A stretch of DNA of 64,000 nt. It comes from a bacterium (GTDB lineage: Bacteria > Bacillota > Clostridia > Oscillospirales > Acutalibacteraceae). Of this stretch, positions 35,152-50,655 are shown piece after piece (position 1 is the first letter of the stretch; the number at the start of each line of letters is the position of its first letter). The stretch is taken from the NCBI GenBank assembly GCA_963661495.1, contig CAVLCA010000012.1, positions 4,450 to 68,449 of the forward strand, written 5' to 3'. Position numbers and translations under genes: made by a program. The notes beneath the pieces are model-generated. The model was not told the DNA's origin. It made no database searches and saw only the letters and a program-made list of their open reading frames with translations.

Positions 35152-37371
35152 TTACTTTTCGGTTTTTGTGTACTGCTTGAGGTGCTTTTGAAGAACATAA
35201 TAACCCGGTTTTAATCTTTCGTGATAAGTTGGAGTGTTCCACGAATCGTAATTATATTTACCGTCAATTTTTATTTGACCCGAAGTGTCTTTTGATGAAC
35301 CCAAGCCAAACGAAAATTCTTCATATGCAGTCGGAGAAATGCTTTGTGTTTTGTAAAAATCGTTTATCTGCTGTTTTGAAGACGGGTCCATAACATTGAG
35401 AAGTTGCCACGGAAGTCTGATTTCTATTTTGCCGTTTTTGTAGCAAAAATCGGTAAGTGATGTATAATCGTCCGAATCCGGATTTGCATTGCCGTACTGC
35501 AATTTACCCGTTTCGTAAACAAGGTCTTTAACCTCTTGATTTGTATGCGGAACAGTAAGATGATAACCGTAGCACATACGCATTTCATTAAATACGCCGC
35601 TGTTTTTGACATTTGAATTTTTGTCAATAGCCATATCGGCAAGTGTGCCGGAGCGTATAAAATAATAGTAAAACGCATCATAATAGCGGTCAACATATAT
35701 ATGCGAATTTTTTGCACCGTTAATCATTACAAGAAAATCTGCGCCCTTGTCAAATTTCAAATTATATTTGCTTGCCGTTGTGTTGCCTTGAGAAGCAATA
35801 GTATCAATCGGGATATAAATTGTGTCGGTGTTAAAATCGTACTTTGAAGTGTCGGTATCAACCATAAGATAAAGATAGCGTTCATCCGATTTTACATACA
35901 GTTTTCCGTAATCTGTTGTGCAAACGGGCTCCTGACCTTTCCATTCGGACACATCGCCGTCAACATAACAAACGGACTGCGTATCTCCCGGGTCAAACGC
36001 AAGCAAGCCAAAGCATTGCTCTGTTGTTTGAATATTTGACCAAAACGGTCGTCTGTCGGCAACATCGAACATAACATTGTTCCAGGTTCTCTTAAACCAT
36101 TCGTCCTGCCAAGTAAAGACAATACCGCCGGCATATTTTTGCTCGTAAATCTTATCAAACAAAGAGGAAAGAATTTGTCCCTGCTTAGTTTCGTCAATTC
36201 GTCCCTGGTCGTAATTCATAACGCTTTTATGCCCCAAACCTCTTGAAGTAGGCACGCCGAATTCCGCAACCATAATCGGCATTGTGTGAGCAAGTTTTAA
36301 GTCGGCAAGATAAGCACTGTATGTGTCAACATTGCCTTCATCGTCATAATTATTCAAATAATCCGTTTGATAATTAAGACTGTCCGGATAATACGGATAA
36401 ATGTGATACGAAGCAAACATTCCCGGTTTAAAGTTATCTCTCGATTTTACATTTTCAACATTAACCGTAACCTTGTCCTCGTCATAATGAGGCTCGTTCG
36501 GGTGAGTGAGCGGGTCGGTTGTAATCCAGTTTGAAAAAGCAAGCGTCGATTGAAATTTGTAATCCTCCGCCTCTTTTTTTATTACAGCGTCGCCAACCTC
36601 ACAGAGAAATGCCTCAAACGGAGTTGCCGCCTGTGTATAAAGATATTCGCCGTCATAAGTTGCTTTGTCGGCGTGCTGTTCATTTGTATTGAGTACCAAA
36701 TTCGGGTCCCACTCAATACCTAAAATCCAACCGCCGAACCAGTGTGAAACATCCGCCGTGTATGTACCGGAAGCCTCACCTGCCGTTTCGGGCAAAGTAA
36801 TGTTGCCGTGAATAACATCAACAAGGTTAAGTGCATCTTCTTTAAAGCCTTCAAGGATTTTACCGTTTTCGGCATAAACATCCGAAAGGCGTGAAATATC
36901 CTCTTCGTTTACCCATACGCCCTGGAAAAGATAAAGCGGATTTTCGGCAGTTTTGTTGTATGTTGCAAGTGCCGTGTAAAACTGCGGTCGCATCGTGGTA
37001 TAAACACGGATACAGTTGCAGTTCATCTCGCCTATATATTTAAACCATCTAAGATAGGTTTCGTACGAAATTGTAAGTTCTCCCGGGAAAATACCCGGCT
37101 CGCCGGCACCGATATTAACACCTGCCCAGAAAACCTCGTTCCACTCGCCGTTTTCGTATATTTGAAAATAATCGCCCTCCGTCTTTACCCGATAGGAAAC
37201 ACCCGTTTCATCGTCGGTAAAGACTTCTTTTTTATTGGAAGCTTCACTGTCTTTACTGTCTGAAAACGGACTTGAAATACCGTGAATACCGAAAGGCTGA
37301 AGAACTCCCGTTTGTGCAAGAACGAGAAAAACCATTAATGTTGCAACAATGGGAATAACATATTTTTTCAT
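35152..37371 (-). CDS. Secreted or anchored 739-aa protein of the EPS-synthase operon; possible TIM-barrel glycoside hydrolase/transglycosylase-like domain
   Basis: N-terminal hydrophobic anchor. NCIRVYTTMRPQFY, HPNEPH and MVAEFGVPT motifs. The C-terminal module is shared with 39910..43068. Start overlaps the GT2 stop (TAATG). Confidence 0.85.
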   Translation of the reverse strand: MKKYVIPIVATLMVFLVLAQTGVLQPFGIHGISSPFSDSKDSEASNKKEVFTDDETGVSYRVKTEGDYFQIYENGEWNEVFWAGVNIGAGEPGIFPGELTISYETYLRWFKYIGEMNCNCIRVYTTMRPQFYTALATYNKTAENPLYLFQGVWVNEEDISRLSDVYAENGKILEGFKEDALNLVDVIHGNITLPETAGEASGTYTADVSHWFGGWILGIEWDPNLVLNTNEQHADKATYDGEYLYTQAATPFEAFLCEVGDAVIKKEAEDYKFQSTLAFSNWITTDPLTHPNEPHYDEDKVTVNVENVKSRDNFKPGMFASYHIYPYYPDSLNYQTDYLNNYDDEGNVDTYSAYLADLKLAHTMPIMVAEFGVPTSRGLGHKSVMNYDQGRIDETKQGQILSSLFDKIYEQKYAGGIVFTWQDEWFKRTWNNVMFDVADRRPFWSNIQTTEQCFGLLAFDPGDTQSVCYVDGDVSEWKGQEPVCTTDYGKLYVKSDERYLYLMVDTDTSKYDFNTDTIYIPIDTIASQGNTTASKYNLKFDKGADFLVMINGAKNSHIYVDRYYDAFYYYFIRSGTLADMAIDKNSNVKNSGVFNEMRMCYGYHLTVPHTNQEVKDLVYETGKLQYGNANPDSDDYTSLTDFCYKNGKIEIRLPWQLLNVMDPSSKQQINDFYKTQSISPTAYEEFSFGLGSSKDTSGQIKIDGKYNYDSWNTPTYHERLKPGYYVLQKHLKQYTKTEK

Positions 37372-38783
37372 TATTCGTCAAATTCCTTTCGTTCGATTTT
37401 GCCCCAAGTTTGGCGGAGTTTACGGTATTTGAGTATGCCCTCAACTCGGAAAAGCGTGATAAGCTGACGGTAGCCGAAATTTTCAAGTATGGCATAAACC
37501 GAAATTTGAATGTACTGCTTTGCCGTCATTGCCGATTTTTTGGTATACTGCTCCAAAATAAGACTGCCGATAGACAACATAATACCGAGAAGCGTTGCAA
37601 GCAAAAAGTATATTACAAAAAAGAATATATTAAGCTCGCCCATAAGCAGTGAAAACGGAATAAGAAAATATCCGATAACCTCAATACACGCACCGAGGAG
37701 TTCAAAAATCCAGTTGTACGGCACGGCAAGCAAGCCGACTGCACCGTAACGCGGATTTAAAAACAGTTTTTTATGAGAAAGAAGCGTATCAAGAAGACCG
37801 ATTTGCCATCTTCTGCGTTGACCTCTGATATCTTTAAGTTGCATAGGTCCCTGCGTCCAGCACACGGAATCTTCACAAAAAATAATCTTATACTTACGCC
37901 TGTTTTTACGCATATATTCGTGGAGACGAACAACGATTTCCATATCCTCACCGATGGTGTTTGTTTTATATCCGCCGACTTCAATAACCGCCTGCTTTTG
38001 GAACACGCCGAATGCACCCGACACGATGAGCATTGAATTTGAAAGACCCCAACTTACCCTGCCCGATAAAAACGAACGGTAATATTCCACAATTTGGAAA
38101 CGCTCAATGAGCTTTTTCGGCATAGAAAAACTTTCAAACACACCGTCACGGATAATCGAGCCGTTTGCGATACGCACGATACCTCCGGCAACGATTGTAT
38201 TCTTATTCTTGTTAAACTCAATTGCAAGTTTCAAAAGAGCATCTTTTTCAAGACGGGAGTCCGCGTCAAGGCAGGCAAAAAGCGGATATGACGAAGCGTT
38301 TATACCGGCATTGAGTGCGTCCGATTTACCGCCGTTCGCCTTGTCGATATAAATCAACTGCGGATATTTTACATTGTAGTAAACGCCCCTTACCTCTTTT
38401 GTCGGAATGGAAATCTTTTGAGAAGTTTCGATTTGATAAAGGTCAAACGCCTTGATGATTTTGTCGTGCGTGCGGTCGGTTGAACCGTCGTTTACAACAA
38501 CAATCTCAAAATTTGGATAATCCATTTTCATAAGCGACTTGATGTTTTGTACAACATTTTCTTCCTCATTGTATGCGGGAATAAGCAAAGAAATCGGCAG
38601 AAGATTATCCGAATACATATACCGCTCGTAATCGTTTGAACGCATTTCTTTTGAATCTCTGCGTACCTTAATCAAAGACAATACCATTTGTGCAATATAT
38701 ATCAAGCTGAGGAGCAGAGTGAACGCCATACAAAAGTAGTTGAAGAACTTAATTACAGCTCTTATATAGGTCATAATATCCAT
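37371..38783 (-). CDS. Processive membrane-embedded family-2 glycosyltransferase (PgaC/IcaA/BcsA-type polysaccharide synthase)
   Basis: N-terminal span; LLIPAYNEEENV...VVVNDGSTDRT; DADS; GEDMEIV; QRRRWQIG (Q-x-x-R-W). Several C-terminal spans. Confidence 0.9.
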   Translation of the reverse strand: MDIMTYIRAVIKFFNYFCMAFTLLLSLIYIAQMVLSLIKVRRDSKEMRSNDYERYMYSDNLLPISLLIPAYNEEENVVQNIKSLMKMDYPNFEIVVVNDGSTDRTHDKIIKAFDLYQIETSQKISIPTKEVRGVYYNVKYPQLIYIDKANGGKSDALNAGINASSYPLFACLDADSRLEKDALLKLAIEFNKNKNTIVAGGIVRIANGSIIRDGVFESFSMPKKLIERFQIVEYYRSFLSGRVSWGLSNSMLIVSGAFGVFQKQAVIEVGGYKTNTIGEDMEIVVRLHEYMRKNRRKYKIIFCEDSVCWTQGPMQLKDIRGQRRRWQIGLLDTLLSHKKLFLNPRYGAVGLLAVPYNWIFELLGACIEVIGYFLIPFSLLMGELNIFFFVIYFLLATLLGIMLSIGSLILEQYTKKSAMTAKQYIQISVYAILENFGYRQLITLFRVEGILKYRKLRQTWGKIERKEFDE

Positions 38784-38788
38784 AGCGT

Positions 38789-39868
38789 CTACCCCCTCAT
38801 ATCAATTTCTCTGTAAAGTGAATTCTTAACCGCATCGGCGGCATATCGGTCGTAGCCTTTCATAATCTCGTCTATATCCTTGATTTTAACCGACATATTA
38901 AGAAGTGCCGAAGCCGCAACCTGACGAACCCACCACTCTTTGTCTTTCGTGGCGATTTTAACGGCGTCAACGGATTCTCTCGTTTGAAAAGCGGCAAGCC
39001 CTTTAATAGCGGCAATACGCACAACCCAATTTTTATCCTTTGCCGCAACGATAAGCGCGTGCTCGTATTCAAGGTTTTTAAGTCCCGAAAGTGCCTTGAC
39101 GCAAGCAATTTTCATATCCTCGTTTGTACTTGTAACGCCTGCATAATAAATATCGGCAAAATCACTCAAACCGTATGAAGCAACCGCCGTAATAATAGTT
39201 GCTTTCATACTCTCGTTGCAATTTTTAAGAACAAGTGCAACCAACTCGGTTAAATCCCCGCCGTAACACGCAATAATTTCATATACCACTCGGGTTGATA
39301 ATTTTTTATCGTCTTCAAGGCTGACAATGTACTTTGCCACACGCTCGCAATCACCGAATACAGACAACGCCATAGCCGCATTGTACGCGATTGTGCGGTT
39401 TTTGTCGGTTACAAGTTTGCCTATATCGTTGACATAATCAACCGCACTAAAATCGGCAAGACGGCGGCACGCATAACATTTATCGTGCCAACTTCCGTCC
39501 TTGAGAAGTTTTGCGTAAATTTCAATCGGCTTTAGCGTATTGTCAATGTCAACAAAAATATTCTCTCTTGATTTTGTGAAATCATCGGCTTGATTTTTCC
39601 ATTTATTCACTTCTTCATACACGGTGTCAAGAATTTCACAGTCACCGTTCACAAGGTCGCTCAGCGATTTAAGCTCACTTTCTCTTGAACGGTGGGTCGG
39701 GCTGAACATAATTCCCTCCACTATCTTTTTTGCCTTTTTTCGTGCCGCAGAATATTTATTTGTATGTTTTTCCTGCTTAACTGCAAGAATGTAGAGCCAC
39801 AAATATTCAATCGCAAGCAGAAATAAGCAAATGATAATACCTATTACCGCTAAAAGTTCGTATGTCAA
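38789..39868 (-). CDS. Membrane-anchored HEAT-repeat protein
   Basis: N-terminal span, then repeats of the type DKNWVVRIAAIKGLA / DKEWWVRQVAASALL. Confidence 0.8.
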   Translation of the reverse strand: MTYELLAVIGIIICLFLLAIEYLWLYILAVKQEKHTNKYSAARKKAKKIVEGIMFSPTHRSRESELKSLSDLVNGDCEILDTVYEEVNKWKNQADDFTKSRENIFVDIDNTLKPIEIYAKLLKDGSWHDKCYACRRLADFSAVDYVNDIGKLVTDKNRTIAYNAAMALSVFGDCERVAKYIVSLEDDKKLSTRVVYEIIACYGGDLTELVALVLKNCNESMKATIITAVASYGLSDFADIYYAGVTSTNEDMKIACVKALSGLKNLEYEHALIVAAKDKNWVVRIAAIKGLAAFQTRESVDAVKIATKDKEWWVRQVAASALLNMSVKIKDIDEIMKGYDRYAADAVKNSLYREIDMRG

Positions 39869-39909
39869 AATCTCACCGCCTTTCGGATATATCTTTCAAA
39901 TATCTAATG

Positions 39910-42900
39910 TTATTTTATAGTTTTAAAGTATTTTTTCAGAGTGCCGAATCCGTCTTTTTCACGGTACTCAAAATCCACAGTTTCCCAACTGTTCCACTTG
40001 AAAGTTTTGTAGCCCGGATCCTGTTTTGATTCAGGGAACATATAAAGAAGGTCCTTTGTGCTCTTATCGGCAATCATAAGCGAAATCAAAAAGCCGTTTG
40101 TCTGCGTTGTTTTTGCCTGTGAGCCGAGTTTACCCGGATTGTTGATAACAATCTTTTGCGTCGGGTCGGTCACATTAAGAAGTGCCCACGGAATACGGAT
40201 ATATGTTGTTGTACCCGTTGAGTAATATTGATTGTCGCCCGAACGGAAACCGCCGTATTTGAGAGTTGCAACAAGACTGTACTTACCTGTATAGCTTTCC
40301 TTTGAAGAATAGTTGCCCTCACTTTTGTCATACGATTTTACAACATAAAGCTTCGCATTTTGTTTGCTTGAAAAATGTATAACAAATTCCATACCCGAAA
40401 GAGCGGTAGGCGTATACTTTGAAGCGTAGTAATATTCACCGTCGTTACGCTGATAAGTGTCAATGCCGACGAAGAAATCTTCTTTTGAATAATCTACCTC
40501 TTCAAGCATTCTTACATTAATATAAAGATAGCTTTCATTTGCCGAAACGGACATACCCTGCATTCTGTCATCATCGGTGTATTCCAAATCCGTGTTTTCC
40601 GGCGTTTTGGAATCAAGCGACACGATACCGGTCGTTTGAGCACTGTCGGCAACATTATGCCACAAATAATTATTAAGAAGCGGCACTGTAAACGGATACA
40701 TTTTACTCGAAACGGCAGACCAATTGTCGTTGAGGTCGGATATAACCGCACCCATAGTGTTTGCACCCGATACGGCATTAAGTCCGGCAATGAGTTTGCT
40801 TGCCTGTTCTGCCTCGCTGTTACCTCCGATGTTTGACGAAATGCTTATTGAGCTTACAAGAAGCGGAGCCTTAACGGCTGTCAAAAGGTCGCTGAGGTAT
40901 TTAGAAAATCCGTCGCCGTATGTGTTGCCGTAGCGTTTTGCGTTTTGAGCAAACACACCCTTGTCAAGCTCGCCGTTTACGGAGAGGAAGAAATACGGCT
41001 TTGACTTTTCGTTTGCCGAAATAACGGTTGACATATCGTATTTTGTGTCACCCTTTGCAAGCGAATAGTCGGCAACCGAATTTGAGTCAATCTGTACGCC
41101 GACAGGGATTTTGTAGCCGTAAGATTTGACATTTTTACTTTCGGCAATATCGCAAAGTTTTGCGGCAAACGCCTCAACAGGAGCATTTGCACTGAAATAC
41201 TTGCCGGTATAGGTGAATCCGTTTGAGCTGTTTTTAATCGCCTTGGCGTTGGCGGAAGTCAAATTTGCGTCAATCAAAACTCCGAGTACATAAGGTGAAA
41301 CATCGTTAAAATAGGAAGTGGCGTTAAGATTGGTTGTAGCCTTTGTCGAGCCGTCGCCGTGGAGTGCTTTGATAACTGTTTCAATCGCTTTTTTCCACTG
41401 CTTTTGACCGTCCTCGGTTAAATATTTATCCGCAGAAAGTCCCTCGGGAGCGGTTACCGTTTGAATTATGTAAATCTTATTATCGCTGTTATCAACATTA
41501 TTTTGATAAATCGCACGGTAAAACTCAGCCGGCATAAGACCTTTTGCTCTTACGCAATTTGCACCTATTTCATTCATTTCCTCAACAAGATTCTGATAGT
41601 AAGTGTAGTCGCGGGTGTACTTTGTTTCGCCCGGCTTGTTTGCGTTTATACTAAAGGCTTTCAGGTTAAATTCTTTGAATTTTTTGCCGTCGAGAACCTC
41701 AAATTTGCCGTTGTTTACTCGGGCAACTTCGGTAGAGTTTTTGCTTTCCTGTGCTCCTTTTTTGTGACGGTCGCCGTTTTCGGCTTTACAGTCCTTGAGG
41801 ATTTTCGTCATAAGCGGATTGTAAAACTTCCAATAAAAGCACGAAATGTCGCCCAAATTATCATAAGACAAAAACTTGAAAAACTTGTCTGCACCCAAGA
41901 ATTTATTGATATTCTTTTTGCTGACATAATCGTTAAAGTCACCGGCAAAATAGTATGCCGCCGGCTTATTTTTTACTTTTTTTCGGGTAATGGCAACAAA
42001 TCTCGGTGTGTTTGAAATTTCTGCCATTTTCTCCATACCTGTTGCATTTACATCAAATTCGAATGTGGCAAATGCCTCGGCGTCTGCATTAGCTTCAATC
42101 AATTCAAACCAATTATAAAAGTTGGTTTTTTTACAGCCCTTAAATTCCTTTTTATAATCCTCGTTCAAATAGATTTTGAGTAGGTTTTTGGAATCGAAGT
42201 CTGTTTTTTGCTCCAAGACAATGATTTTACCCTCTTTTGACACAAGCAATATTCCCGATCCGGTAAACTGCCACTCAACGCCCGACTGCTGTTCATAAAG
42301 TTCAGGTGCCCAATCGGGAACATCGGTGAAGTCCTGCAAATCATAAATATATCTGCCGACCCATCCTGTTTCGCTTATGCCGAAAAGCGACTGAAGCTGT
42401 GCGGTAACAGAAGCGGTCATATTTGAGTTAAAAAGTTCCATTTCACCGATAACTGTTGCATTATTTTCGTAAGCATAAGACACAACGGACATATCGTCGG
42501 CGTTGAAGCCCGAACCTTTGGCGTCGTCATCGTTAAAATATCCGTAAGTGTCGTTTGTCGCACCGTAAACATCGGAAATATACATCAAATCAGGCACATA
42601 ATCAAGCGTGGTAAGCTCTTTCATTTCGGTAGTCGTTCCGTCCTCTTTGAGGTGCTGACCGAAATAATCGTTTGTGTAATCGTATGCACTACCGTCCTGA
42701 AAAACGATTTTCTTTTGATTCAAAAGCCAAAAAAGTCCCTCGTGCTTTCTGTAAGCAAGCTCGTTATCAACATCGTTATCTTCTTCGGCAACAAGCACCG
42801 TTTTATCAAGCACGCAAACATTAAGGTAGGTTTTTGCCTTAATCTGCCAGCCGACAAAAGCAATAATTATTATCAAAAGCAAAATCATCGGAACTATAAA

Positions 42901-43068
42901 GTACCACTTGAAAAACCATTTTTGTTTTATCTTTTTAGTTTCCTGTTTTGTTTGCTCCGCACGGTCTTTTTCGGGATCAAATGTGTTTTCGTCCACCTGC
43001 GGTGCAACATAAGTGTTTGGATTTGAGGCTTCGTTAAGTTCTGCCCCGTTAAGCTTTTCTTCACTCAT
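39910..43068 (-). CDS. 1052-aa single-span ectoprotein of the EPS-synthase operon
   Basis: About 50-aa cytoplasmic N-terminus and span FKWYFIVPMILLLIIIIAFVGW. ANCVRAKGLMPAEFY segment. C-terminal module IRIPWALLNVTDP shared with 35152..37371. Confidence 0.85.
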   Translation of the reverse strand: MSEEKLNGAELNEASNPNTYVAPQVDENTFDPEKDRAEQTKQETKKIKQKWFFKWYFIVPMILLLIIIIAFVGWQIKAKTYLNVCVLDKTVLVAEEDNDVDNELAYRKHEGLFWLLNQKKIVFQDGSAYDYTNDYFGQHLKEDGTTTEMKELTTLDYVPDLMYISDVYGATNDTYGYFNDDDAKGSGFNADDMSVVSYAYENNATVIGEMELFNSNMTASVTAQLQSLFGISETGWVGRYIYDLQDFTDVPDWAPELYEQQSGVEWQFTGSGILLVSKEGKIIVLEQKTDFDSKNLLKIYLNEDYKKEFKGCKKTNFYNWFELIEANADAEAFATFEFDVNATGMEKMAEISNTPRFVAITRKKVKNKPAAYYFAGDFNDYVSKKNINKFLGADKFFKFLSYDNLGDISCFYWKFYNPLMTKILKDCKAENGDRHKKGAQESKNSTEVARVNNGKFEVLDGKKFKEFNLKAFSINANKPGETKYTRDYTYYQNLVEEMNEIGANCVRAKGLMPAEFYRAIYQNNVDNSDNKIYIIQTVTAPEGLSADKYLTEDGQKQWKKAIETVIKALHGDGSTKATTNLNATSYFNDVSPYVLGVLIDANLTSANAKAIKNSSNGFTYTGKYFSANAPVEAFAAKLCDIAESKNVKSYGYKIPVGVQIDSNSVADYSLAKGDTKYDMSTVISANEKSKPYFFLSVNGELDKGVFAQNAKRYGNTYGDGFSKYLSDLLTAVKAPLLVSSISISSNIGGNSEAEQASKLIAGLNAVSGANTMGAVISDLNDNWSAVSSKMYPFTVPLLNNYLWHNVADSAQTTGIVSLDSKTPENTDLEYTDDDRMQGMSVSANESYLYINVRMLEEVDYSKEDFFVGIDTYQRNDGEYYYASKYTPTALSGMEFVIHFSSKQNAKLYVVKSYDKSEGNYSSKESYTGKYSLVATLKYGGFRSGDNQYYSTGTTTYIRIPWALLNVTDPTQKIVINNPGKLGSQAKTTQTNGFLISLMIADKSTKDLLYMFPESKQDPGYKTFKWNSWETVDFEYREKDGFGTLKKYFKTIK

Positions 43069-45317: not shown

Positions 45318-45335
45318 ATTGTTACCCTGTCTTTG

Positions 45336-45548
45336 TTATTTGTTTATGTTTGAATACTTATTGAGTAATTTTTTAACCTGTTGGTCGTTGTCCACGGTTG
45401 CATCGTCGTTTTCACCGACAAGTTCGTGAAACTCTGCAATGAGCTTTCCGATTTCTTCATACTTATCTTCAATATCGGAAAGAATGTCTACAAGCTTTGA
45501 ATTAACATATTTTAATTCTTCCGCTTCTTTTATGTAATCCTGATTCAT
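45336..45548 (-). CDS. Small acidic hypothetical protein (70 aa)
   Basis: ORF tightly packed between flanking genes (16-18 nt gaps). No recognisable motif. Confidence 0.5.
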   Translation of the reverse strand: MNQDYIKEAEELKYVNSKLVDILSDIEDKYEEIGKLIAEFHELVGENDDATVDNDQQVKKLLNKYSNINK

Positions 45549-45564
45549 AATTTGTCCTTTACAG

Positions 45565-46185
45565 TTATGCTAATTTTGCTATGTACTGCTTGCCGTCCTT
45601 TTGAGTTGTTACGGTAATCGTAGCAGAGCCGGACGAAGTTGTCTTTTTTTCATCCGAGAAAAACGACGCTTCAATCACATACGTTCCGTCGCTTTGAGCG
45701 GTTGACGAAGCAGTATAATATAAATCTCTGCCGTAAAGCGGTTCCCACATTTCAAACTTCTTTTTACCGCTGTTGTACAAATCGGATTTTGTAATATCAA
45801 CATTCAGCTTGCCAAAATCCTTTTGAATTTGAGAGTTAATTTGCTCGGCTGTTGCCTCACGCATTTTAACGCCCTCTCTCGGCATATCCGTGAGATTGTT
45901 ATAATAAAGTCTGCAAAAAGCATATTGCACCAACTTGCTTGTTGATATTTCACTCGGCGAATTAAAGCTGTCAATCGCAAGCAAATATTTCAATTCGTAC
46001 GCACGGTTGGCATAATATTCTTCATCAATAGTTGAGGTGTCGGCAGAAGTTTCTTCCGATGTGTCAACAACATAGTTGTCGTCCTTTTCACTTTTTTGCT
46101 TGACATTTGGGTCAACATTTGAGCAAGCCGCAAAAGCACCCACCATAAAAATAACCGACAGCAAAAACGCAATAGTCTTTTTCAT
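45565..46185 (-). CDS. Lipoprotein, function unknown
   Basis: Lipobox MKKTIAFLLSVIFMVGAFAAC|SN. Confidence 0.75.
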   Translation of the reverse strand: MKKTIAFLLSVIFMVGAFAACSNVDPNVKQKSEKDDNYVVDTSEETSADTSTIDEEYYANRAYELKYLLAIDSFNSPSEISTSKLVQYAFCRLYYNNLTDMPREGVKMREATAEQINSQIQKDFGKLNVDITKSDLYNSGKKKFEMWEPLYGRDLYYTASSTAQSDGTYVIEASFFSDEKKTTSSGSATITVTTQKDGKQYIAKLA

Positions 46186-46281
46186 ATTTATATCTCCTAA
46201 CCGTTTCTCTATATATTATATACATTATATATTATATCGGTATACAAAGCAAACAATTATACATATCTTACACTTTTTTAT

Positions 46282-46307
46282 AAAAAAAGGGACCGCAATG
46301 CAGTCCC
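46282..46307 (-). terminator. Probable rho-independent terminator after 46328..47518
   Basis: Minus strand reads GGGAC-(9 nt)-GTCCC followed by TTTTTTT. Confidence 0.5.
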
Positions 46308-46327
46308 TATGCGTATTGAAATTAGTT

Positions 46328-47518
46328 TTAGAAGCCCCAGTTGTAATCTGTGTATGAAATTGTCTTGTCTTCAGCCTGTTCAATGAATACAAAAGCTGTT
46401 TTTACATACTTGAATGAATTGTAAGCGTCTGTAATAATTGTTGAGCCTAAAGGAAGGTTTACAGAAAGGCTTTCTGTAGGAGTGTTTACAACTTTAAGAA
46501 TACCTGTTTGCTTGTCATAGTCTTCGTTGAAGTGGAATCTGTAAGCCATAAAGCACTTGTTTACATCTGTACGGAGAACCGGGTCGCCTTTTGGAAGAAC
46601 AAATGTCTTTGTTGCTTCGTCATAGCTTCTTTCTGTGTAGCTGTTTGAAACCTTAACGGTGTAAACAACTGTACCGGCAATACCGTAGCCGTAATCTGTG
46701 TAAGTGTCTGTATCCCAGTCGTTTGAGCACATCTGGAATTTGTATTCTTTACCGATTTCAAGATTAAGAGTGTCGCCTGTCTTATAAACACTGCCGTCTT
46801 CAAAACGAACAGACATCTTTTTAGGAGTTACAATGCCGAGTTCGATTGACTTTGAATCGTCATCTTCATCGTCTTTCTTGTCGTCCTTTTTGTCATCTTC
46901 TTTTTCAGTTGATTTCCACTGAGCATAAAGAGTGAAAATGTTGATTCCTTTAGGGAAACCGAGGTCTTTTACAACAATTGTGTCGCCCTCTTTGTAAGCT
47001 TTACCCGAACCGTCAGCCTTTGTGTTCCAACCTGTGAATTCATGACCCTCATATGTGAATGAGCTTGCCTTAACTGTAGCTGTGTCCTTTTTGAAGTAGT
47101 GCTGTGGGTCTGTTGTTGAGCCCGATGTTGCACCGTTTCCGTCATAAAGGAAGCTGTAAAACGGAATAATTACGCCGTCAACATGCCAACCTTCGCTTTC
47201 TTGCTTTGTAACATACCAAACAACAGATTGACCGCTTTCAAGTGAAACTTCAGGAGCGGATACGATGTTTGAAACGCCCTCTTCGTTGTACTCGCCGGTG
47301 TAACCGTCTGTAACTGTGATTTTACCGTTGCCTGCTGCCGAATAATTGCTCTTTGGCTGGCTTGCCGTACCTACAGGAACCGGAAGACCCGAGTTCAAAA
47401 GGTAAAACGAAGCGTTAACCGTTTTGCTCGATGCTGCAAATGCACTTACAGGGAACATTGATACGATAAACATAACAAGAATTACTGCCGCAGCAATTTT
47501 TTTCATACTCTTTTTCAT
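46328..47518 (-). CDS. Secreted 396-aa protein with one Listeria-Bacteroides-type (Flg_new) repeat; riboswitch-controlled
   Basis: Signal peptide ...FPVSAFA|AS. FTYEGHEFTGWNTKADGSGKAYKEGDTI...LYAQW. Asp/Lys-rich linker. No membrane anchor. Confidence 0.85.
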   Translation of the reverse strand: MKKSMKKIAAAVILVMFIVSMFPVSAFAASSKTVNASFYLLNSGLPVPVGTASQPKSNYSAAGNGKITVTDGYTGEYNEEGVSNIVSAPEVSLESGQSVVWYVTKQESEGWHVDGVIIPFYSFLYDGNGATSGSTTDPQHYFKKDTATVKASSFTYEGHEFTGWNTKADGSGKAYKEGDTIVVKDLGFPKGINIFTLYAQWKSTEKEDDKKDDKKDDEDDDSKSIELGIVTPKKMSVRFEDGSVYKTGDTLNLEIGKEYKFQMCSNDWDTDTYTDYGYGIAGTVVYTVKVSNSYTERSYDEATKTFVLPKGDPVLRTDVNKCFMAYRFHFNEDYDKQTGILKVVNTPTESLSVNLPLGSTIITDAYNSFKYVKTAFVFIEQAEDKTISYTDYNWGF

Positions 47519-47564
47519 AATTATTATCTCCTTTACGAATTATTTGTAATTTACGGGTTGTTTG

Positions 47565-47706
47565 TAAAAATAAAAACCGCAAACTGTAAAACAATCTGCG
47601 GTTTGACTACCATAGTAAATACTTTAGGTTCATAACTTTGCGTCCTGCCGTTTCCGACAGTTTGCCAAATATTAACTTAAAAATTTCAGAGATTTCTCTC
47701 GATTGC
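47565..47706 (-). promoter_or_regulatory. Class-I c-di-GMP riboswitch (GEMM-I) with terminator-type expression platform
   Basis: Minus-strand RNA reads UUUGGCAAAC-UGUCG-GAAA-CGGCA-GGACGCAAAG-UUAUGAA-CCUAAAG-UAUUUAC-UAUGGUAG-UCAAACCGCAG. It has the GGCAAAC and GACGCAAAG blocks, a GAAA tetraloop hairpin and the CCUAA(A)G/UAUGG receptor. The hairpin AAACCGCA/UGCGGUUU (47604-47574) plus a U-tract follows. Confidence 0.8.
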
Positions 47707-47712
47707 AAGGCA

Positions 47713-47741
47713 AGTATATCAAATAAAAATCCGTTTGTCAA
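47713..47741 (-). promoter_or_regulatory. Sigma-A type promoter driving the riboswitch leader
   Basis: Minus strand reads TTGACA (47741-47736), a 17-nt spacer, then TATACT (47718-47713). Confidence 0.65.
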
Positions 47742-47778
47742 TAGAAAATTCAAAAAAATATTTGTAAATTTTTCACAA

Positions 47779-48129
47779 TCAATTTTCAATCTTTTTGATG
47801 TTTTCAACAACGAGATTATAATTTTGTGTTAATTCCTCAATCATTTGTGCAGTTACACCGTTTTCGCCTCCACGCAACGCCTCGGAAATTTTAATACACG
47901 ATTTTGAAAGAAGATAGAACCCAAGATTAAGACTTATACCTTTAAGCGAATATATCGCCCTATAAGCCTCCTCCAAATTTCCGTTTTGATATTCCGTCAC
48001 AAACCTGTCGTAGCTTTCGTCATGTGAAAACGCATTTACATACTTCATTATAAGCTCATTTGAGCAAAGCCGTGAAAATACTTTTTGATAATCGCTTCCG
48101 ATTGCTTTGTAAAATTCTTTGATTTGCAT
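47779..48129 (-). CDS. Hpt-like four-helix protein lacking the phospho-accepting histidine
   Basis: EEAYRAIYSLKGISLNLGF corresponds to the Hpt H-x-x-K-G helix with Tyr in place of His. ATG at 48129 follows AAGGAAG and lies 1 nt after the upstream stop; the ORF-track start at 48156 is TTG. Confidence 0.6.
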   Translation of the reverse strand: MQIKEFYKAIGSDYQKVFSRLCSNELIMKYVNAFSHDESYDRFVTEYQNGNLEEAYRAIYSLKGISLNLGFYLLSKSCIKISEALRGGENGVTAQMIEELTQNYNLVVENIKKIEN

Positions 48130-48130
48130 A

Positions 48131-50572
48131 TTACTCACTTCCTTTATTTTGCTCAAATTCCGTAACGATGCGTTTATTATTTATTTTGCCGAAATACAAA
48201 AGCCTGTCGGCATCGTTAATTGCAAGTTCCGTATTTTCTTTGCCGTATTTGCCGCCGATTGTAATTGAAAATCGGTAATTCGGCATTTCCTCAAATTCTA
48301 TTTCACCGACCGCATTAACTAAATTTTGAAGCGTAGCGGTAAACTCGGTCTCGTTAACGCCAACAAATAACAACACAAATTCGTCTCCGCCGTAGCGAAT
48401 CAATTTGTCATTTTGTCCGATATTGGCGGTTATTGCTTTTGCAACGGCAGCAATAGCCTTATCACCGACAATATGACTGTAATTATCGTTAATCGCCTTA
48501 AATCCGTCTATATCAATCATACAAACAGCGGTGACATTTTTCAATTGCTTACCCACATCGTCAAAATAACGACGGTTAAGCGTGTCTGTAAGCGGGTCAC
48601 GGTAAAGCTTACGGTTATAGCTGTTGACATAATTGATAAAATCATTTTTACCGTAAGCGTCAAACAGCAAATCGCTTCTGTTTTGATACACCATTTCAAC
48701 CACTCTCGGATGACCGTCAATTTCCATATATTTGGAAAAGACTTGGTACACGCTGTCGTTCAAAAATTCAAGCTTCGAGTGTGTTTTTTTGGTTTTAAAA
48801 GTTTTGTACGATATGCAGTTTTGGCAACGCTCGTTTCTGCCCCAAATAGAATAACATTTGAGTCTGCCCGTTTTTTGTGCCTTGTCAACATCGCCCTCAA
48901 AAGTTTTGTTGCTTACAATATTCGTTTCAATCGGGTCAACCACACGCACAACATCAAACACTTTTTTGATTTGTTCGGCAAAAACTTCAAACCCGCTGTC
49001 GTTGTAGTTTTTCATATCGATTGTGTCAATACTCTCAAAACTGTTGCTCGGTATAATACGCATAACAACACTTTTACGCTTAAGAACCGTGTCACCCGTC
49101 CACAGCGACATAATCTTAACTTCGCACTTATACTTTTTGCCATCATGTTCAAGATGAGCCGTGCCATTAAAAATCGGAATATTCGGTGTTGTTTGATTAA
49201 TCATATCAATCAGCTTATCGTAGTTGCCGTTTCCCTTACTGAGTTCACGAAAAGTGTGCATATCAATCATTGAGCTGTCAAGATTCAAAAGTCTAACACC
49301 GTAATCCGACACAGTAACCATACCGTAGTCTATATCGTATTCGATTTGAATTTCCTTTATGCCGTTTGAAAAAAACTTACGCTTCGCATTTTCAAAAAAC
49401 AAAAGATATTTCTTATCGTCCTCATTGTCATCTTGCGAATTCAGTTTGTCGGCAATGAGTTCTTTTGTAACTCTGAACGCCATGGTATCTTCGCCCGGCA
49501 TATTCTTTCTGCCGTGCACAATCTTGCAAAGGTAGTCAGAACAATCGCTTAAACTGTTCAAAAGCAACGGATTAAAAGCCCCGCATTCGCCGGCAAGTAT
49601 CATTTTAACAGCCGTTTCGTGGTCATAAGCCGACTTGTAACAACGCTCGCTTGTAAGCGCGTCATACACATCTGCCAAAGCGACAACCTGTGCGGAAATA
49701 GGGATTTCTTCGCCTTTCAGCCCGTCCGGATAGCCAAAACCGTCCCACCTTTCGTGGTGCCATCGGCATATTTCATAAGCATATTTATATATCCCGTTTT
49801 CGTTTTTTACTCTTTTGTCAAATCCCGGCATTGCCTTTATCATATCGGAGCCTATTGCCGAATGTTTTTTTATAATTTCAAATTCGTCCGTAGTGAGTCT
49901 GCCCGGCTTATTAAGCACTTTTTCATCTATAGCGATTTTGCCTATATCATGGAGTGCGGAAGCCGTAGATATGAGCATAATTTTTCTGTTCGTCAACTCA
50001 TAACGATCCGTAATTTCGGCAACACGCTCAAGCAAAATGCGTGAAACAGTCTGAACATTATGGATATGAAGATTGCTCTCGCCGTTTCTGAATTCAACAA
50101 TATTGCCCAAAGCATCTATCATCTGACGGCTGTAAATTTCCGTTTCGGCAATTTGCTCTTCAACCATACCCATAAGTTGCTTTTGTTTTCTGTAAAGTGC
50201 AAGCGTGTTTTTTATACGGTTATGAATAGTCGCACTATTGTACGGTCGTTTAATATAATCCACAACCCCGATTTTATACGCTTCTTCCAAAAACATTTCA
50301 TCATTCGATGAAATAACAATAACAGGAACGGTTGTAAGCCAACCTCGTTCTTTCATAACACGGAGTGTCTTAAAGCCGTCCATAACAGGCATAACAAGGT
50401 CGAGCACCACAAGCTCTATTTCATCAAGATTTTCGGAAATAACAGAAACCGCCTCACAACCGTTGGCAGCTTGCAAAATCTCATATTCATCACTCAAAAG
50501 TTCCGCTAAAATCATTCTGTTGATTTGCGAATTATCAGCTATCAATATTTTTTGCTTGTCCATCGTGCTCAT
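48131..50572 (-). CDS. Response-regulator receiver + HD-GYP + Cys-motif linker domain + GGDEF protein
   Basis: REC: ILIADNS...LVVLDLVMPVMDG...DYIKRP. HD-GYP: ALHDIGKI...WHHERWDGFGYPDGLKGEEIP. GGDEF: LNRRYFDD...IDIDGFKAINDNYSHIVGD...RYGGDEFVLL. Confidence 0.9.
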   Translation of the reverse strand: MSTMDKQKILIADNSQINRMILAELLSDEYEILQAANGCEAVSVISENLDEIELVVLDLVMPVMDGFKTLRVMKERGWLTTVPVIVISSNDEMFLEEAYKIGVVDYIKRPYNSATIHNRIKNTLALYRKQKQLMGMVEEQIAETEIYSRQMIDALGNIVEFRNGESNLHIHNVQTVSRILLERVAEITDRYELTNRKIMLISTASALHDIGKIAIDEKVLNKPGRLTTDEFEIIKKHSAIGSDMIKAMPGFDKRVKNENGIYKYAYEICRWHHERWDGFGYPDGLKGEEIPISAQVVALADVYDALTSERCYKSAYDHETAVKMILAGECGAFNPLLLNSLSDCSDYLCKIVHGRKNMPGEDTMAFRVTKELIADKLNSQDDNEDDKKYLLFFENAKRKFFSNGIKEIQIEYDIDYGMVTVSDYGVRLLNLDSSMIDMHTFRELSKGNGNYDKLIDMINQTTPNIPIFNGTAHLEHDGKKYKCEVKIMSLWTGDTVLKRKSVVMRIIPSNSFESIDTIDMKNYNDSGFEVFAEQIKKVFDVVRVVDPIETNIVSNKTFEGDVDKAQKTGRLKCYSIWGRNERCQNCISYKTFKTKKTHSKLEFLNDSVYQVFSKYMEIDGHPRVVEMVYQNRSDLLFDAYGKNDFINYVNSYNRKLYRDPLTDTLNRRYFDDVGKQLKNVTAVCMIDIDGFKAINDNYSHIVGDKAIAAVAKAITANIGQNDKLIRYGGDEFVLLFVGVNETEFTATLQNLVNAVGEIEFEEMPNYRFSITIGGKYGKENTELAINDADRLLYFGKINNKRIVTEFEQNKGSE

Positions 50573-50626
50573 AACAAAAACGGCAGCAAAGCCGCTTACC
50601 CCTCCTGCACAAAATATCTAATCTAT

Positions 50627-50655
50627 ATTATAACAACAAATTATATTTTTATCAA
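50627..50655 (-). promoter_or_regulatory. Sigma-A type promoter upstream of the REC/HD-GYP/GGDEF gene
   Basis: Minus strand reads TTGATA (50655-50650), a 17-nt spacer, then TATAAT (50632-50627). Confidence 0.55.

What the first reader, a model, noticed from the sequence alone, without database searches (positions are those of the whole stretch)
35152..50655. A 15-kb c-di-GMP island linking a maker/breaker, a riboswitch and an EPS machine
Seen: several elements lie in one co-directional stretch. First come a REC/HD-GYP/GGDEF protein and a pseudo-Hpt gene, then a GEMM-I riboswitch controlling a secreted protein. A lipoprotein gene and a 70-aa protein gene follow. Last is the HD-GYP sensor and EPS-synthase operon. 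Inference: this is a self-contained module. A phosphorelay input would set local c-di-GMP levels. That signal would switch on a secreted matrix or adhesin protein through RNA and, through an unidentified protein receptor, the polysaccharide synthase. The lipoprotein (45565..46185) and the 70-aa acidic protein (45336..45548) head the EPS transcription unit and have no recognisable function.
Basis: inference. Interest (0 to 1): 0.6.

Follow-up and report, generated by a model that had tools for sequence, protein, structure and literature searches.

The report
c-di-GMP riboswitch, enzymes and polysaccharide operon
A gut Clostridia bacterium keeps almost all of its c-di-GMP signalling parts in one conserved 15-kb block, next to an unstudied sugar-polymer-secreting machine that carries a c-di-GMP riboswitch upstream in every relative examined.

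Summary
**Observation: confirmed.** All listed elements lie on the minus strand at the stated coordinates.

**Layout: three transcription units.**
- A REC/HD-GYP/GGDEF enzyme with an Hpt-like gene.
- A c-di-GMP-I riboswitch (66.8 bits) leading a secreted 396-aa protein, closed by a strong terminator.
- A seven-gene unit: lipoprotein, 70-aa protein, 7TM HD-GYP-like sensor, 1052-aa pseudo-hydrolase, HEAT protein, processive GT2 synthase, GH-A-like 739-aa protein.

**The genome's c-di-GMP parts are concentrated here.** This 2.18-Mb genome has one riboswitch, two HD-GYP domains, two GGDEF domains, no EAL and no PilZ. All but one GGDEF lie in this block. 29 of 37 genomes of the genus have no GGDEF.

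**Synteny.** The whole block is syntenic in three other genomes, two of them with mostly unrelated flanks. The core, from riboswitch to EPS operon, recurs in at least six further lineages. A riboswitch lies upstream in all 14 loci whose 5' end is visible. In five it directly leads the operon, and all 12 leaders folded place a terminator right after or over the aptamer end.

**Interpretation: partly supported.**
- The module is real.
- The receptor for the EPS machine is most likely the riboswitch itself, not an unknown protein.
- The phosphorelay idea is weak: His is replaced by Tyr here.
- The enzyme pair is a genus-specific addition.

This is a new variant of known kinds. No transcript data could be obtained.

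The parts
50627..50655 (-). Sigma-70-like promoter for the enzyme unit (TTGATA-17-TATAAT, with an extended TG).
   Evidence: Consensus scan, 11 of 12 matches. Prediction only.
48131..50572 (-). 813-aa cytoplasmic REC / HD-GYP / unassigned ~300-aa region / GGDEF protein. It is a likely bifunctional maker and breaker of c-di-GMP.
   Evidence: Pfam Response_reg, HD_5 and GGDEF are all above cut-off. Read by eye from the translation: acceptor Asp in VVLDLVMP, HHERWDGFGYP, and RYGGDEF. There is no RxxD I-site (GQND). Orthologues show 50% identity at the same position in G032 and G019.
47779..48129 (-). 116-aa single-domain Hpt-like protein with Tyr in place of the phospho-accepting His.
   Evidence: Pfam Hpt scores 20.9 bits, below the 24.6 cut-off. 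The window has AIYSLKG and L002 has AVYTLKG. G032 and G019 have IHTLKG and G013 has VHMFKG. It is the only Hpt-like match in the genome.
47713..47741 (-). Promoter of the riboswitch unit (TTGACA-17-TATACT, with TG).
   Evidence: Consensus scan, 11 of 12 matches.
47594..47676 (-). c-di-GMP-I (GEMM-I) riboswitch aptamer.
   Evidence: Rfam RF01051, 66.8 bits against a gathering score of 35, covering the full model 1-87. It is the only copy in the genome. Equivalent copies lie at the same position in all relatives.
47562..47604 (-). Expression platform: an intrinsic terminator. Its 5' arm shares 11 nt with the 3' end of the aptamer (P2 3' strand and tail). This predicts an ON switch acting by anti-termination.
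   Evidence: A 14-bp hairpin plus U-tract, dG -18.3 kcal/mol. All 12 leaders folded carry a strong hairpin here; in 11 of the 12 its 5' arm starts inside the aptamer.
46328..47518 (-). Secreted 396-aa protein: signal peptide, Flg_new repeat, K/D/E-rich linker and a conserved 180-aa C-terminal domain with no Pfam model.
   Evidence: The C-terminal domain recurs in 309 or more proteins with different heads: Flg_new, Beta_helix_3, pAdhesive_15, DUF7305 and CBM2. Two of three stand-alone members examined also have a c-di-GMP-I riboswitch upstream.
46281..46308 (-). Strong intrinsic terminator after the 396-aa gene.
   Evidence: A 9-bp stem with 6 GC pairs, followed by T7. It is conserved in L002, L017, L018, L056 and L057, and absent in L003.
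46256..46284 (-). Candidate internal promoter for the EPS unit (TTTATA-17-TATAAT). TTGxxT-17-TATAAT elements lie at the matching place in G032 and G019.
   Evidence: Scan. My own reading of the intergenic sequences. Prediction only.
45565..46185 (-). 206-aa lipoprotein, first gene of the EPS unit.
   Evidence: Invariant lipobox Cys21 followed by a near-invariant D/N-P-N/A/G-V/L/I stretch (consensus NVDPNVKQ), plus an FEMWxPxYG core, in 28 homologues. The AF2 model has pLDDT 84. The only fold match is weak, to IseA at E = 0.017. It always precedes the sensor.
45336..45548 (-). 70-aa acidic, helical, cytoplasmic protein of unknown role.
   Evidence: pI 4.4 and no TM segment. No Pfam hit better than E = 0.03. 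A 65-70-aa gene holds this position in L002, L017, L018, L003, L053/L056, L058, L059, L060 and L069.
43068..45317 (-). 749-aa membrane sensor: TM helix, ~130-aa ectodomain, about 6-7 TM helices, linker, then an HD-GYP-type domain with a GYY motif.
   Evidence: HD_5 scores 114 bits. It aligns to the active PmGH structure 4mcw at E = 5e-41. Topology comes from hydropathy. The metal ligands are kept and the GYP motif is degenerate in all 14 operon-embedded sensors checked.
39910..43068 (-). 1052-aa single-pass membrane protein with a large ectodomain. Residues 456-1049 are a paralogue of the 739-aa protein that has lost both candidate catalytic Glu residues (a pseudo-hydrolase).
   Evidence: BLASTP E = 1e-24. 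NEP aligns to GDTKY and AEFG aligns to VSSIS. No Pfam or PDB sequence hit.
38789..39868 (-). 359-aa N-terminally anchored HEAT-repeat protein, probably cytoplasmic.
   Evidence: HEAT_2 scores 71 bits. TM segment at residues 1-32, followed by a Lys/Arg-rich stretch.
37371..38783 (-). 470-aa processive family-2 glycosyltransferase, the synthase.
   Evidence: Glycos_transf_2 scores 91 bits, with Chitin_synth_2 also matched. PgaC_IcaA scores 132 bits, below its 422 cut-off. It aligns to BcsA over residues 49-389. The motifs DAD, GEDME and QRRRW are seen in the sequence.
35152..37371 (-). 739-aa secreted or anchored GH-A-like (TIM-barrel) protein with a beta-sandwich C-terminal part. It is the likely polymer-trimming hydrolase.
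   Evidence: AF2 pLDDT 74.7. Foldseek finds GH157, GH2, GH5 (including the C. difficile cellulose-synthase subunit CcsZ) and GH72 at E = 1e-9 to 1e-5. E293 (in NEP) and E370 (in AEFG) are invariant in 15 sequences. More than 4,600 homologues exist, none with a Pfam domain.

Best explanation
**Overall reading.** The stretch is a c-di-GMP regulon inherited as one block. It has an old core and a genus-specific add-on.

**Core (47741..35152).**
- It is a riboswitch-led exopolysaccharide locus.
- When c-di-GMP binds the class-I aptamer, it holds the 3' strand that would otherwise form the 5' arm of the leader terminator. Transcription then reads on (ON switch; inferred).
- The first product is a secreted protein whose conserved C-terminal domain is shared by many riboswitch-led surface proteins.
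- Downstream lies the machine:
  - a processive GT2 synthase with a HEAT-repeat partner on the cytoplasmic side;
  - a membrane-anchored pseudo-hydrolase and a GH-A-like hydrolase outside the cell;
  - a lipoprotein and a 70-aa protein of unknown role.
- The machine also includes a 7TM sensor with an HD-GYP-type phosphodiesterase domain. If it degrades c-di-GMP, it gives negative feedback gated by an outside signal (inferred).
- In relatives the riboswitch drives the whole operon.
- In this genus a strong terminator and a promoter-like element lie between the first gene and the machine. Riboswitch control of the machine here would therefore depend on read-through, which I rate at about even odds.

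**Add-on (50655..47779).**
- It is a REC/HD-GYP/GGDEF enzyme with an Hpt-like partner.
- It supplies and tunes c-di-GMP in a genus where most species have no cyclase at all.
- In this species the Hpt-like protein has lost its His.
For: **Annotation.**

**Inventory of the genome (99% complete).**
- One riboswitch.
- Two GGDEF domains.
- Two HD-GYP domains, both in this block.
- No EAL and no PilZ.

**Distribution in the genus.**
- 29 of 37 genomes have no GGDEF.
- The 739-aa marker occurs only in G000, G019, G032 and a fragment in G023, and all four have GGDEF.
- By my own hand calculation, Fisher's exact test gives p of about 0.001. This ignores phylogeny.

**Full-block synteny.**
- The whole block is kept in L002, G032 and G019 at 40-99% amino-acid identity.
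- In G032 and G019 the flanks are otherwise unrelated.

**Core synteny with a riboswitch upstream.**
- L003.
- L055-57.
- L058/59.
- L060.
- G365.
- G410.
- The paralogous operons of G019 and G032.

These rest.

**Leader and junction architecture.**
- A strong terminator follows the aptamer in all 12 leaders folded, and it overlaps the aptamer end in 11 of them.
- In L056 only about 25 nt separate the terminator from the lipoprotein ATG.
- In L003 there is no terminator at that junction.

**Proteins.**
- The 739-aa protein has a GH-A fold and invariant Glu residues.
- The 1052-aa protein is a pseudo-hydrolase paralogue.
- The sensor keeps its metal ligands.
Against: - No expression data could be obtained.
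- In this genome the terminator at 46308..46288 is strong. Promoter-like hexamers follow it here and in G032 and G019. The EPS unit may therefore be transcribed independently of the riboswitch.
- A second cyclase lies outside the block.
- The sensor's GYP motif is degenerate in every orthologue, and the third-metal Glu of PmGH is Ser here. Its substrate is therefore uncertain.
- The polymer, the hydrolase activity and the ligand response are all inferred.
- The Foldseek TM-scores for the 739-aa model are only 0.3-0.5.
Confidence: 0.65

Rival explanations
1. The EPS unit has its own c-di-GMP-blind promoter. The synthase is switched on after translation by c-di-GMP bound to an as yet unknown protein, such as the GT2 itself, the HEAT protein, the 70-aa protein or the GYY sensor acting as a receptor. 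The riboswitch controls only the 396-aa protein.
For: - A strong terminator and promoter-like hexamers lie between the two units, here and in G032 and G019.
- From established knowledge, known synthase-dependent systems (Bcs, Pga, Pel, Alg, and YdaK in B. subtilis) use protein receptors.
- The degenerate GYP motif could mark a binding role rather than a cleaving one.
Against: - No PilZ domain exists in the genome. No degenerate GGDEF is present in the operon.
- All metal ligands of the sensor are conserved.
- In five loci the riboswitch directly leads the operon.
- In the L056 lineage no room is left for a promoter.
- This model is not exclusive of the best explanation.
Confidence: 0.3
2. The block is a neighbourhood without a dedicated circuit. 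c-di-GMP is a global pool set equally by the outside cyclase on contig C13. The REC/HD-GYP/GGDEF and Hpt pair merely sits next to the riboswitch locus in this genus.
For: - The pair is absent next to the core in five other lineages.
- A second cyclase of about 370 aa exists here. ORFs of similar size carrying GGDEF occur in G019 and G032.
- No kinase gene is adjacent.
Against: - The pair and the core stay together in G000, L002, G019 and G032 while the flanks differ.
- Both HD-GYP domains of the genome are in the block.
- Most genus members lack any cyclase, so an ON-switch operon needs a cyclase to travel with it.
Confidence: 0.15
3. The operon-embedded HD-GYx sensor is not a c-di-GMP phosphodiesterase. 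It hydrolyses another nucleotide such as pGpG or 3'3'-cGAMP. It therefore gives no feedback on the riboswitch ligand.
For: - The GYP motif is replaced in all 14 operon-embedded sensors checked, by GYY, GYR, GYN, GMN, GQN, GNN, GYF or GYL.
- The second-best PDB match is a cGAMP-specific HD-GYP, 5z7c.
- Ser sits at the position of the third-metal Glu of PmGH.
Against: - The best match is the c-di-GMP-active PmGH, at E = 5e-41.
- The aptamer has G and C at the positions that, from my memory of the Vc2 structure, specify c-di-GMP rather than cGAMP.
- No cGAMP synthase was looked for.
Confidence: 0.2

Closest known systems
c-di-GMP riboswitch-led surface-structure genes: C. difficile pilA1 pilus operon and the CD2831 adhesin, V. 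cholerae Vc1-gbpA, B. thuringiensis Bc2-cap (recalled from the literature, not tested here)
   Same: - An ON-type riboswitch lies upstream of a secreted or structural first gene.
- As I recall, in the pilA1 case assembly genes lie downstream of that first gene.
- High c-di-GMP favours attachment.
   Different: - This is a class-I aptamer in front of a synthase-dependent polysaccharide locus.
- The locus carries its own phosphodiesterase.
- In this genus it also has a neighbouring cyclase/phosphodiesterase.
PNAG systems pgaABCD / icaADBC
   Same: - The synthase is a small processive GT2 with a QxxRW motif.
- It is the best NCBIfam match, PgaC_IcaA at 132 bits.
- From established knowledge, PgaCD is activated by c-di-GMP.
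   Different: - The score is far below the 422-bit equivalog cut-off.
- The operon has no deacetylase and no PgaD or IcaD.
- The partners are a HEAT protein and GH-A-like ectoproteins.
C. perfringens NELoc-2 genes CP4_0466-0468 (685-aa hypothetical, HEAT-repeat protein, GT2 'chitin synthase'; PMC2879425)
   Same: A large hypothetical protein, a HEAT-repeat protein (377 aa) and a GT2 (466 aa) lie in the same order and have similar sizes.
   Different: - Homology was judged only from the paper's table, not aligned here.
- The paper describes no riboswitch or HD-GYP sensor for that locus.
- Its function is also unknown.
B. subtilis ydaJKLMN (c-di-GMP receptor YdaK plus GT2 YdaM; recalled, not tested)
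   Same: It is a Gram-positive synthase-type EPS operon whose first regulatory gene is a membrane c-di-GMP-domain protein.
   Different: - YdaK is a degenerate GGDEF receptor.
- Here the embedded protein is an HD-GYP-type enzyme with intact metal ligands, and the operon is RNA-controlled.
- No Pfam family is shared by the large proteins.
HD-GYP phosphodiesterases PmGH (4mcw) and PA4781 (4r8z)
   Same: The H, HD, H, HHE and D metal ligands align.
   Different: - The operon sensor lacks the Pro, and in some lineages the Tyr, of the GYP motif.
- It lacks the third-metal Glu.
- It is fused to a 7TM sensor module.
Clan GH-A glycoside hydrolases of EPS systems, such as CcsZ (GH5, 6uje); PslG is recalled
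   Same: - TIM-barrel fold.
- A NEP-type acid/base motif and a second invariant Glu.
- The gene lies beside the synthase.
   Different: - No sequence-level membership in any Pfam or PDB family.
- The protein has an extra ~280-aa beta-rich C-terminal part.

Membership tests
c-di-GMP-I riboswitch (RF01051) | Covariance-model score above the gathering threshold over the full model. | tested here: met
   66.8 bits against 35, covering model positions 1-87.
c-di-GMP-I riboswitch (RF01051) | Ligand-contact nucleotides, the equivalents of Vc2 G20, A47 and C92. | tested here: inconclusive
   G at model position 11, AA at 38-39 and C at 83 in the alignment. The mapping to Vc2 numbering is from memory.
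c-di-GMP-I riboswitch (RF01051) | An expression platform coupled to the aptamer. | tested here: met
   The terminator's 5' arm overlaps the aptamer by 11 nt here. A strong hairpin follows the aptamer in all 12 leaders folded, and in 11 of the 12 it overlaps the aptamer end.
c-di-GMP-I riboswitch (RF01051) | Binds c-di-GMP and changes transcription. | not testable with these tools
   Needs in-line probing or a reporter.
HD-GYP phosphodiesterase | HD_5 domain above cut-off, with H/HD/H/HHE/D metal ligands. | tested here: met
   Both proteins qualify: 89 and 114 bits, with alignment to 4mcw and motifs confirmed.
HD-GYP phosphodiesterase | GYP signature. | tested here: not met
   The 813-aa protein meets it (GFGYP). 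The 749-aa sensor does not (GNGYY), and neither do any of its 13 other operon-embedded counterparts checked.
GGDEF diguanylate cyclase | GGDEF domain above cut-off with an intact GG(D/E)EF site. | tested here: met
   86 bits. RYGGDEF is in the sequence. The RxxD I-site is absent.
Hpt phosphotransfer domain | Pfam score above cut-off and a phospho-accepting His in HxxKG. | tested here: not met
   20.9 bits, below 24.6. Tyr sits at the His position here and in L002. Orthologues in G032, G019 and G013 keep His.
PNAG synthase PgaC/IcaA | Equivalog-level score, with deacetylase and small-subunit partners. | tested here: not met
   132 bits against a 422 cut-off. No Polysacc_deac domain in the operon.
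Processive membrane GT2 synthases (BcsA / chitin synthase / HAS type) | D, DxD, (T/G)ED and QxxRW motifs, flanked by TM helices. | tested here: met
   DAD, GEDME and QRRRW are in the sequence. TM segments lie at residues 9-41 and 358-412. It aligns to BcsA over residues 49-389.
Clan GH-A glycoside hydrolase (739-aa protein) | (beta/alpha)8 fold with two catalytic Glu residues. | tested here: inconclusive
   Foldseek matches GH157, GH2, GH5 and GH72 at probability 1.0, but with TM-scores of 0.3-0.5. E293 (in NEP) and E370 (in AEFG) are invariant. Their strand positions were not checked, and there is no CAZy or Pfam sequence match.
PilZ / known protein c-di-GMP receptors | A PilZ domain somewhere in the genome. 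| tested here: not met
   No match at E <= 0.01, while the control genomes are positive.
B. subtilis YdaJKLMN-type operon | Homology of the large proteins to YdaL and YdaN. | not tested
   No reference sequences were at hand. This is only a recalled resemblance.

The most novel reading that the evidence does not exclude
**A new class of EPS machine.** The riboswitch-led locus would encode a distinct, so far unstudied class of synthase-dependent exopolysaccharide machine. Its parts are the HEAT partner, a PgaC-like GT2, and a GH-A-like hydrolase with its pseudo-hydrolase paralogue. It would carry its own feedback enzyme, the 7TM HD-GYx sensor.

**A display system.** The conserved, un-named C-terminal domain of the 396-aa protein would be the module that fastens interchangeable heads to this polymer. 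The heads seen are Flg_new, beta-helix, a putative adhesin and CBM modules.

**Combined meaning.** Together these would form a c-di-GMP-switched surface-display system, carried as a portable island into lineages that otherwise lack c-di-GMP signalling.
Probability: 0.25. Interest if true: 0.75.

Novelty: new variant of a known kind. Interest (0 to 1): 0.55.

Why it matters
- **A minimal natural network.** It has two cyclases, two HD-GYP enzymes, one riboswitch, and neither PilZ nor EAL. Most sister species have no GGDEF cyclase. This makes it a clean system for asking how a whole second-messenger circuit is gained with its target.
- **An unstudied, common machine.** The 739-aa protein alone has more than 4,600 homologues in gut and rumen metagenomes, and none has a domain name. 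I found no functional study of this polysaccharide machine.
- **A testable circuit.** A riboswitch that switches on an operon containing a likely c-di-GMP-degrading sensor predicts a feedback loop.
- **A lead for the surface proteins.** Many riboswitch-led surface proteins share one C-terminal domain, which suggests how these bacteria might change their surface.

Tried and rejected
2. **Whole metagenome records.** Searching through locus handles failed. I used the look-up of encoding contigs with neighbouring proteins instead.
3. **'Empty site' test.** G013 has an Hpt homologue (66%) beside a homologue of the 285-aa flank gene (71%), plus a borderline riboswitch hit. The orientation and the other neighbours differ, so it is not a clean excision scar.
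4. **The 70-aa protein versus the 256-aa protein** that follows the riboswitch in the paralogous operon: no similarity, E = 19.
5. **Pfam at E <= 10** gives nothing credible for the 739-aa, 1052-aa, 206-aa and 70-aa proteins. PDB sequence searches were empty.
6. **Lipoprotein fold.** Only a weak IseA-like match, at E = 0.017 and TM 0.34-0.43. I do not build on it.
7. **Literature.** Two full-text searches found no description of this operon type beyond the C. perfringens NELoc-2 gene table.
8. **Rejected: one 15-kb transcript.** Two intrinsic terminators and three promoter-like sites divide the stretch.
9. **Rejected: the sensor as a dead receptor.** All metal ligands are conserved in the 14 operon-embedded sensors checked.

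Full report
**1. What is there**

All genes between 35152 and 50655 lie on the minus strand. Going from high to low coordinates, the stretch holds the following.

- **Promoter.** A near-consensus promoter lies at 50655..50627.
- **Enzyme.** An 813-aa protein has Response_reg, HD_5 and GGDEF domains, all above Pfam cut-offs.
  - The sequence shows the acceptor Asp, HHERWDGFGYP and RYGGDEF.
  - It has no RxxD I-site.
- **Hpt-like gene.** It abuts the enzyme gene. The likely ATG is at 48129.
  - It scores 20.9 bits on Pfam Hpt, below the 24.6 cut-off.
  - It reads YSLKG where Hpt has HxxKG.
- **Second promoter.** It lies at 47741..47713.
- **Riboswitch.** A c-di-GMP-I aptamer lies at 47676..47594. 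It scores 66.8 bits against a gathering score of 35, over the full model.
- **Secreted protein.** The 396-aa gene follows, with a signal peptide and a Flg_new repeat.
- **Terminator.** A strong terminator lies at 46308..46288: a 9-bp stem with 6 GC pairs, then T7.
- **Third promoter-like site.** Promoter-like hexamers lie at 46284..46256.
- **EPS unit.** A tightly packed seven-gene unit follows:
  - lipoprotein;
  - 70-aa acidic protein;
  - 749-aa membrane sensor with an HD-GYP-type domain;
  - 1052-aa single-pass protein;
  - anchored HEAT-repeat protein;
  - 470-aa GT2 with DAD, GEDME and QRRRW motifs;
  - 739-aa protein.

The stretch is three transcription units rather than one.

**2. Is the clustering meaningful?**

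*Inventory of this genome.* The assembly is 2.18 Mb and 99% complete.
- It has one c-di-GMP-I riboswitch.
- It has two GGDEF domains.
- It has two HD-GYP domains.
- It has no EAL and no PilZ. Control genomes were positive in each family search except RF01051.
- Only one GGDEF protein lies outside the block. It is a 370-aa membrane protein with RIGGDEF on contig C13.

*The genus.*
- Among 37 genomes of the genus, 29 have no GGDEF at all.
- The 739-aa marker of the EPS unit occurs only in G000, G019, G032 and as a fragment in G023. All four have GGDEF.
- By my own hand calculation, Fisher's exact test gives p of about 0.001. This ignores relatedness.

*Whole-block synteny.*
- The block, from the enzyme to the 739-aa gene and including the riboswitch, is kept in L002 at about 95% identity.
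- It is also kept in G032 and G019 at 40-88% amino-acid identity per protein.
- In G032 and G019 the surrounding genes are unrelated to those of the window. The one exception is a weak homologue of the 285-aa flank gene.
- The block therefore holds together while its neighbourhood changes.

**3. The core is older than the block**

Outside the genus, the enzyme/Hpt pair is not next to the core. The rest recurs as follows.

| Locus | Order seen |
|---|---|
| L003 (a Lachnospiraceae MAG) and contigs L052-57 | riboswitch, Flg_new protein, lipoprotein, 65-aa protein, HD-GYP sensor, ~1000-aa protein, HEAT, GT2, 736-aa protein, 708-aa protein |
| L058/L059 and G410 (another family) | riboswitch directly in front of the lipoprotein gene |
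| L060 | riboswitch, then a 701-aa beta-helix protein, then the lipoprotein. The last 220 residues of the beta-helix protein match the C-terminal domain of the 396-aa protein at 49% |
| G365 (same family, other genus) | the window's order, plus a second, divergent riboswitch in front of a second homologue |
| Paralogous operons in G019 and G032 | riboswitch, 256-aa protein, sensor, then the rest |

- A riboswitch lies upstream in all 14 loci whose 5' end I could see.
- The operon is rare among species representatives: 3 to 4 of 401 Clostridia genomes.
- It is common in metagenomes: more than 4,600 homologues of the 739-aa protein, none with a Pfam domain.

**4. How the switch probably works**

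- In the window and in 10 of the 11 other leaders folded, a strong terminator (-18 to -28 kcal/mol) starts inside the 3' end of the aptamer. The exception is the second G365 riboswitch, whose hairpin starts just past the aptamer end.
- In the window the overlap is 11 nt. It covers the base of P2 and the tail that includes the C I take to pair with the ligand.
- The ligand-bound aptamer and the terminator therefore exclude each other. I infer an ON switch.
- The nucleotides at the positions I recall as G20, A47 and C92 of Vc2 fit c-di-GMP rather than cGAMP (the numbering is from memory).

**5. Is the machine under the riboswitch in this genome?**

*For read-through.*
- In L003 there is no terminator between the first gene and the lipoprotein gene.
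- In L056/57 the terminator's T-tract ends about 25 nt before the lipoprotein ATG. That leaves no room for a promoter.
- In five loci the riboswitch directly leads the operon.

*Against.*
- In the window, G032 and G019, about 100 nt of AT-rich sequence follow the terminator. It contains -35/-10-like hexamers.

I therefore rate riboswitch control of the EPS unit in this genome at about even odds. In relatives I rate it as likely. No transcript data could be obtained.

**6. The proteins**

- **739-aa protein.**
  - The AF2 model has pLDDT 74.7.
  - It matches GH157, GH2, GH5 (including the C. difficile cellulose-synthase subunit CcsZ) and GH72 structures at E = 1e-9 to 1e-5. TM-scores are only 0.3-0.5.
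  - E293 in a NEP motif and E370 in AEFG are invariant in 15 sequences.
  - I read it as a clan GH-A-like polymer-trimming hydrolase.
- **1052-aa protein.** Residues 456-1049 are its paralogue (E = 1e-24), with both Glu residues replaced. It is a pseudo-hydrolase, perhaps a polymer-binding partner.
- **GT2.** It is closest to PgaC/IcaA but far below the equivalog cut-off. No deacetylase is present.
- **Sensor.**
  - It aligns with the active PmGH enzyme at E = 5e-41 and keeps all metal ligands.
  - In all 14 operon-embedded sensors checked, the GYP motif is replaced by GYY, GYR, GYN, GMN, GQN, GNN, GYF or GYL. The neighbouring 813-aa enzyme keeps GYP.
  - Hydropathy gives one TM helix, a ~130-aa ectodomain, then six to seven TM helices.
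  - A phosphodiesterase induced by its own substrate's riboswitch would give negative feedback. This is inference, and its substrate is not certain.
- **Lipoprotein.**
  - It has an invariant lipobox Cys and a confident model.
  - The only fold match is weak, to IseA.
  - Its role, and that of the 70-aa protein, stays open.

**7. The first gene**

- Residues 215-396 of the 396-aa protein form a conserved domain without a Pfam model.
- It is found in 309 or more proteins with different heads: Flg_new, Beta_helix_3, pAdhesive_15, DUF7305, CBM2, or none.
- Of three stand-alone members far from any EPS operon, two also have a c-di-GMP-I riboswitch upstream.
- The riboswitch plus this protein family therefore looks like a cassette in its own right.
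- I suggest that the shared domain ties variable heads to the cell surface or to the polymer. This is a guess.

**8. The phosphorelay idea**

- The Hpt-like protein has Tyr at the His position in the window and in L002. It has His in G032, G019 and G013.
- It is the only Hpt-like sequence in the genome.
- The genome's HATPase_c matches sit in open frames of 149-806 aa; none looked hybrid to me, but I did not check them for receiver domains.
- No kinase gene is adjacent.
- The receiver domain looks intact and may be fed directly by an orphan kinase. A His-Asp-His-Asp relay is not supported in this species.

**9. Comparison and novelty**

- Riboswitch-led adhesin or pilus genes, and c-di-GMP-controlled synthase-dependent polysaccharides, are both known kinds.
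- This locus differs in four ways:
  - its partner set (HEAT protein and GH-A-like ectoproteins);
  - the embedded HD-GYx sensor;
  - RNA rather than protein as the likely receptor;
  - travel together with a cyclase/phosphodiesterase in a genus that mostly lacks the messenger.
- The only literature trace I found is the gene table of C. perfringens NELoc-2. It lists a 685-aa hypothetical protein, a HEAT protein and a GT2 'chitin synthase', with no function assigned.
- Two earlier reports of this scan on other genomes describe the same operon type. My results agree with them and were obtained independently before I read them.

**Verdict**

- Observation confirmed.
- Interpretation partly supported.
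- A new variant of known kinds, with interest 0.55.

Noticed in passing
L035 / L061 (G013:C1, about 253-256 kb): This genus member has no GGDEF and no EPS operon. It still carries an Hpt homologue (66% identity, with His intact) beside a homologue of the 285-aa flank gene. A borderline c-di-GMP-I hit (35.7 bits) lies about 0.5 kb upstream of the Hpt gene. It may be a decaying remnant of the block.
   Followed up: partly
L062 (G014:C39), riboswitches at 8041-8126 and 9299-9384, minus strand: In this genome the only GGDEF gene (an ORF of about 361 aa) is bracketed by two c-di-GMP-I riboswitches. One lies upstream of it and one lies downstream, leading into the next gene. This suggests a cyclase under control of its own product.
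   Followed up: no
L060:7378-7580: After the aptamer and its terminator, the last ~25 nt of the aptamer and a second terminator are repeated in tandem. This is a partial duplication of the expression platform.
   Followed up: no
L069 (G365:C17), 14883-15315: Two c-di-GMP-I riboswitches lie back to back on opposite strands. Each leads to a protein carrying the C-terminal domain of the 396-aa protein.
   Followed up: partly
window 48600-49600 (residues ~345-650 of the 813-aa protein): A ~300-aa region between the HD-GYP and GGDEF domains has no Pfam match. It contains a Cys-rich stretch, CYSIWGRNERCQNC. It may be a metal- or ligand-binding input domain.
   Followed up: no
G000:C4:74132-76069 (L021:8124-10301): A lone 726-aa paralogue (39% identity) of the 739-aa GH-A-like protein lies far from the block. 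It sits next to a 1642-aa secreted protein. G019 and G032 have the equivalent copy as the last gene of their second operon.
   Followed up: partly
window 50695-53124: The genes just upstream of the block encode an ATP-binding-cassette ATPase and two membrane proteins that I read by eye as an ECF (CbiMQO-like) transporter. I see no link to c-di-GMP. They are conserved next to the block only in the 95% relative L002.
   Followed up: partly
L076:8536-8740: A 6S RNA gene (60.8 bits) lies about 1.1 kb upstream of a riboswitch-led stand-alone member of the 396-aa protein family. This is probably coincidental.
   Followed up: no
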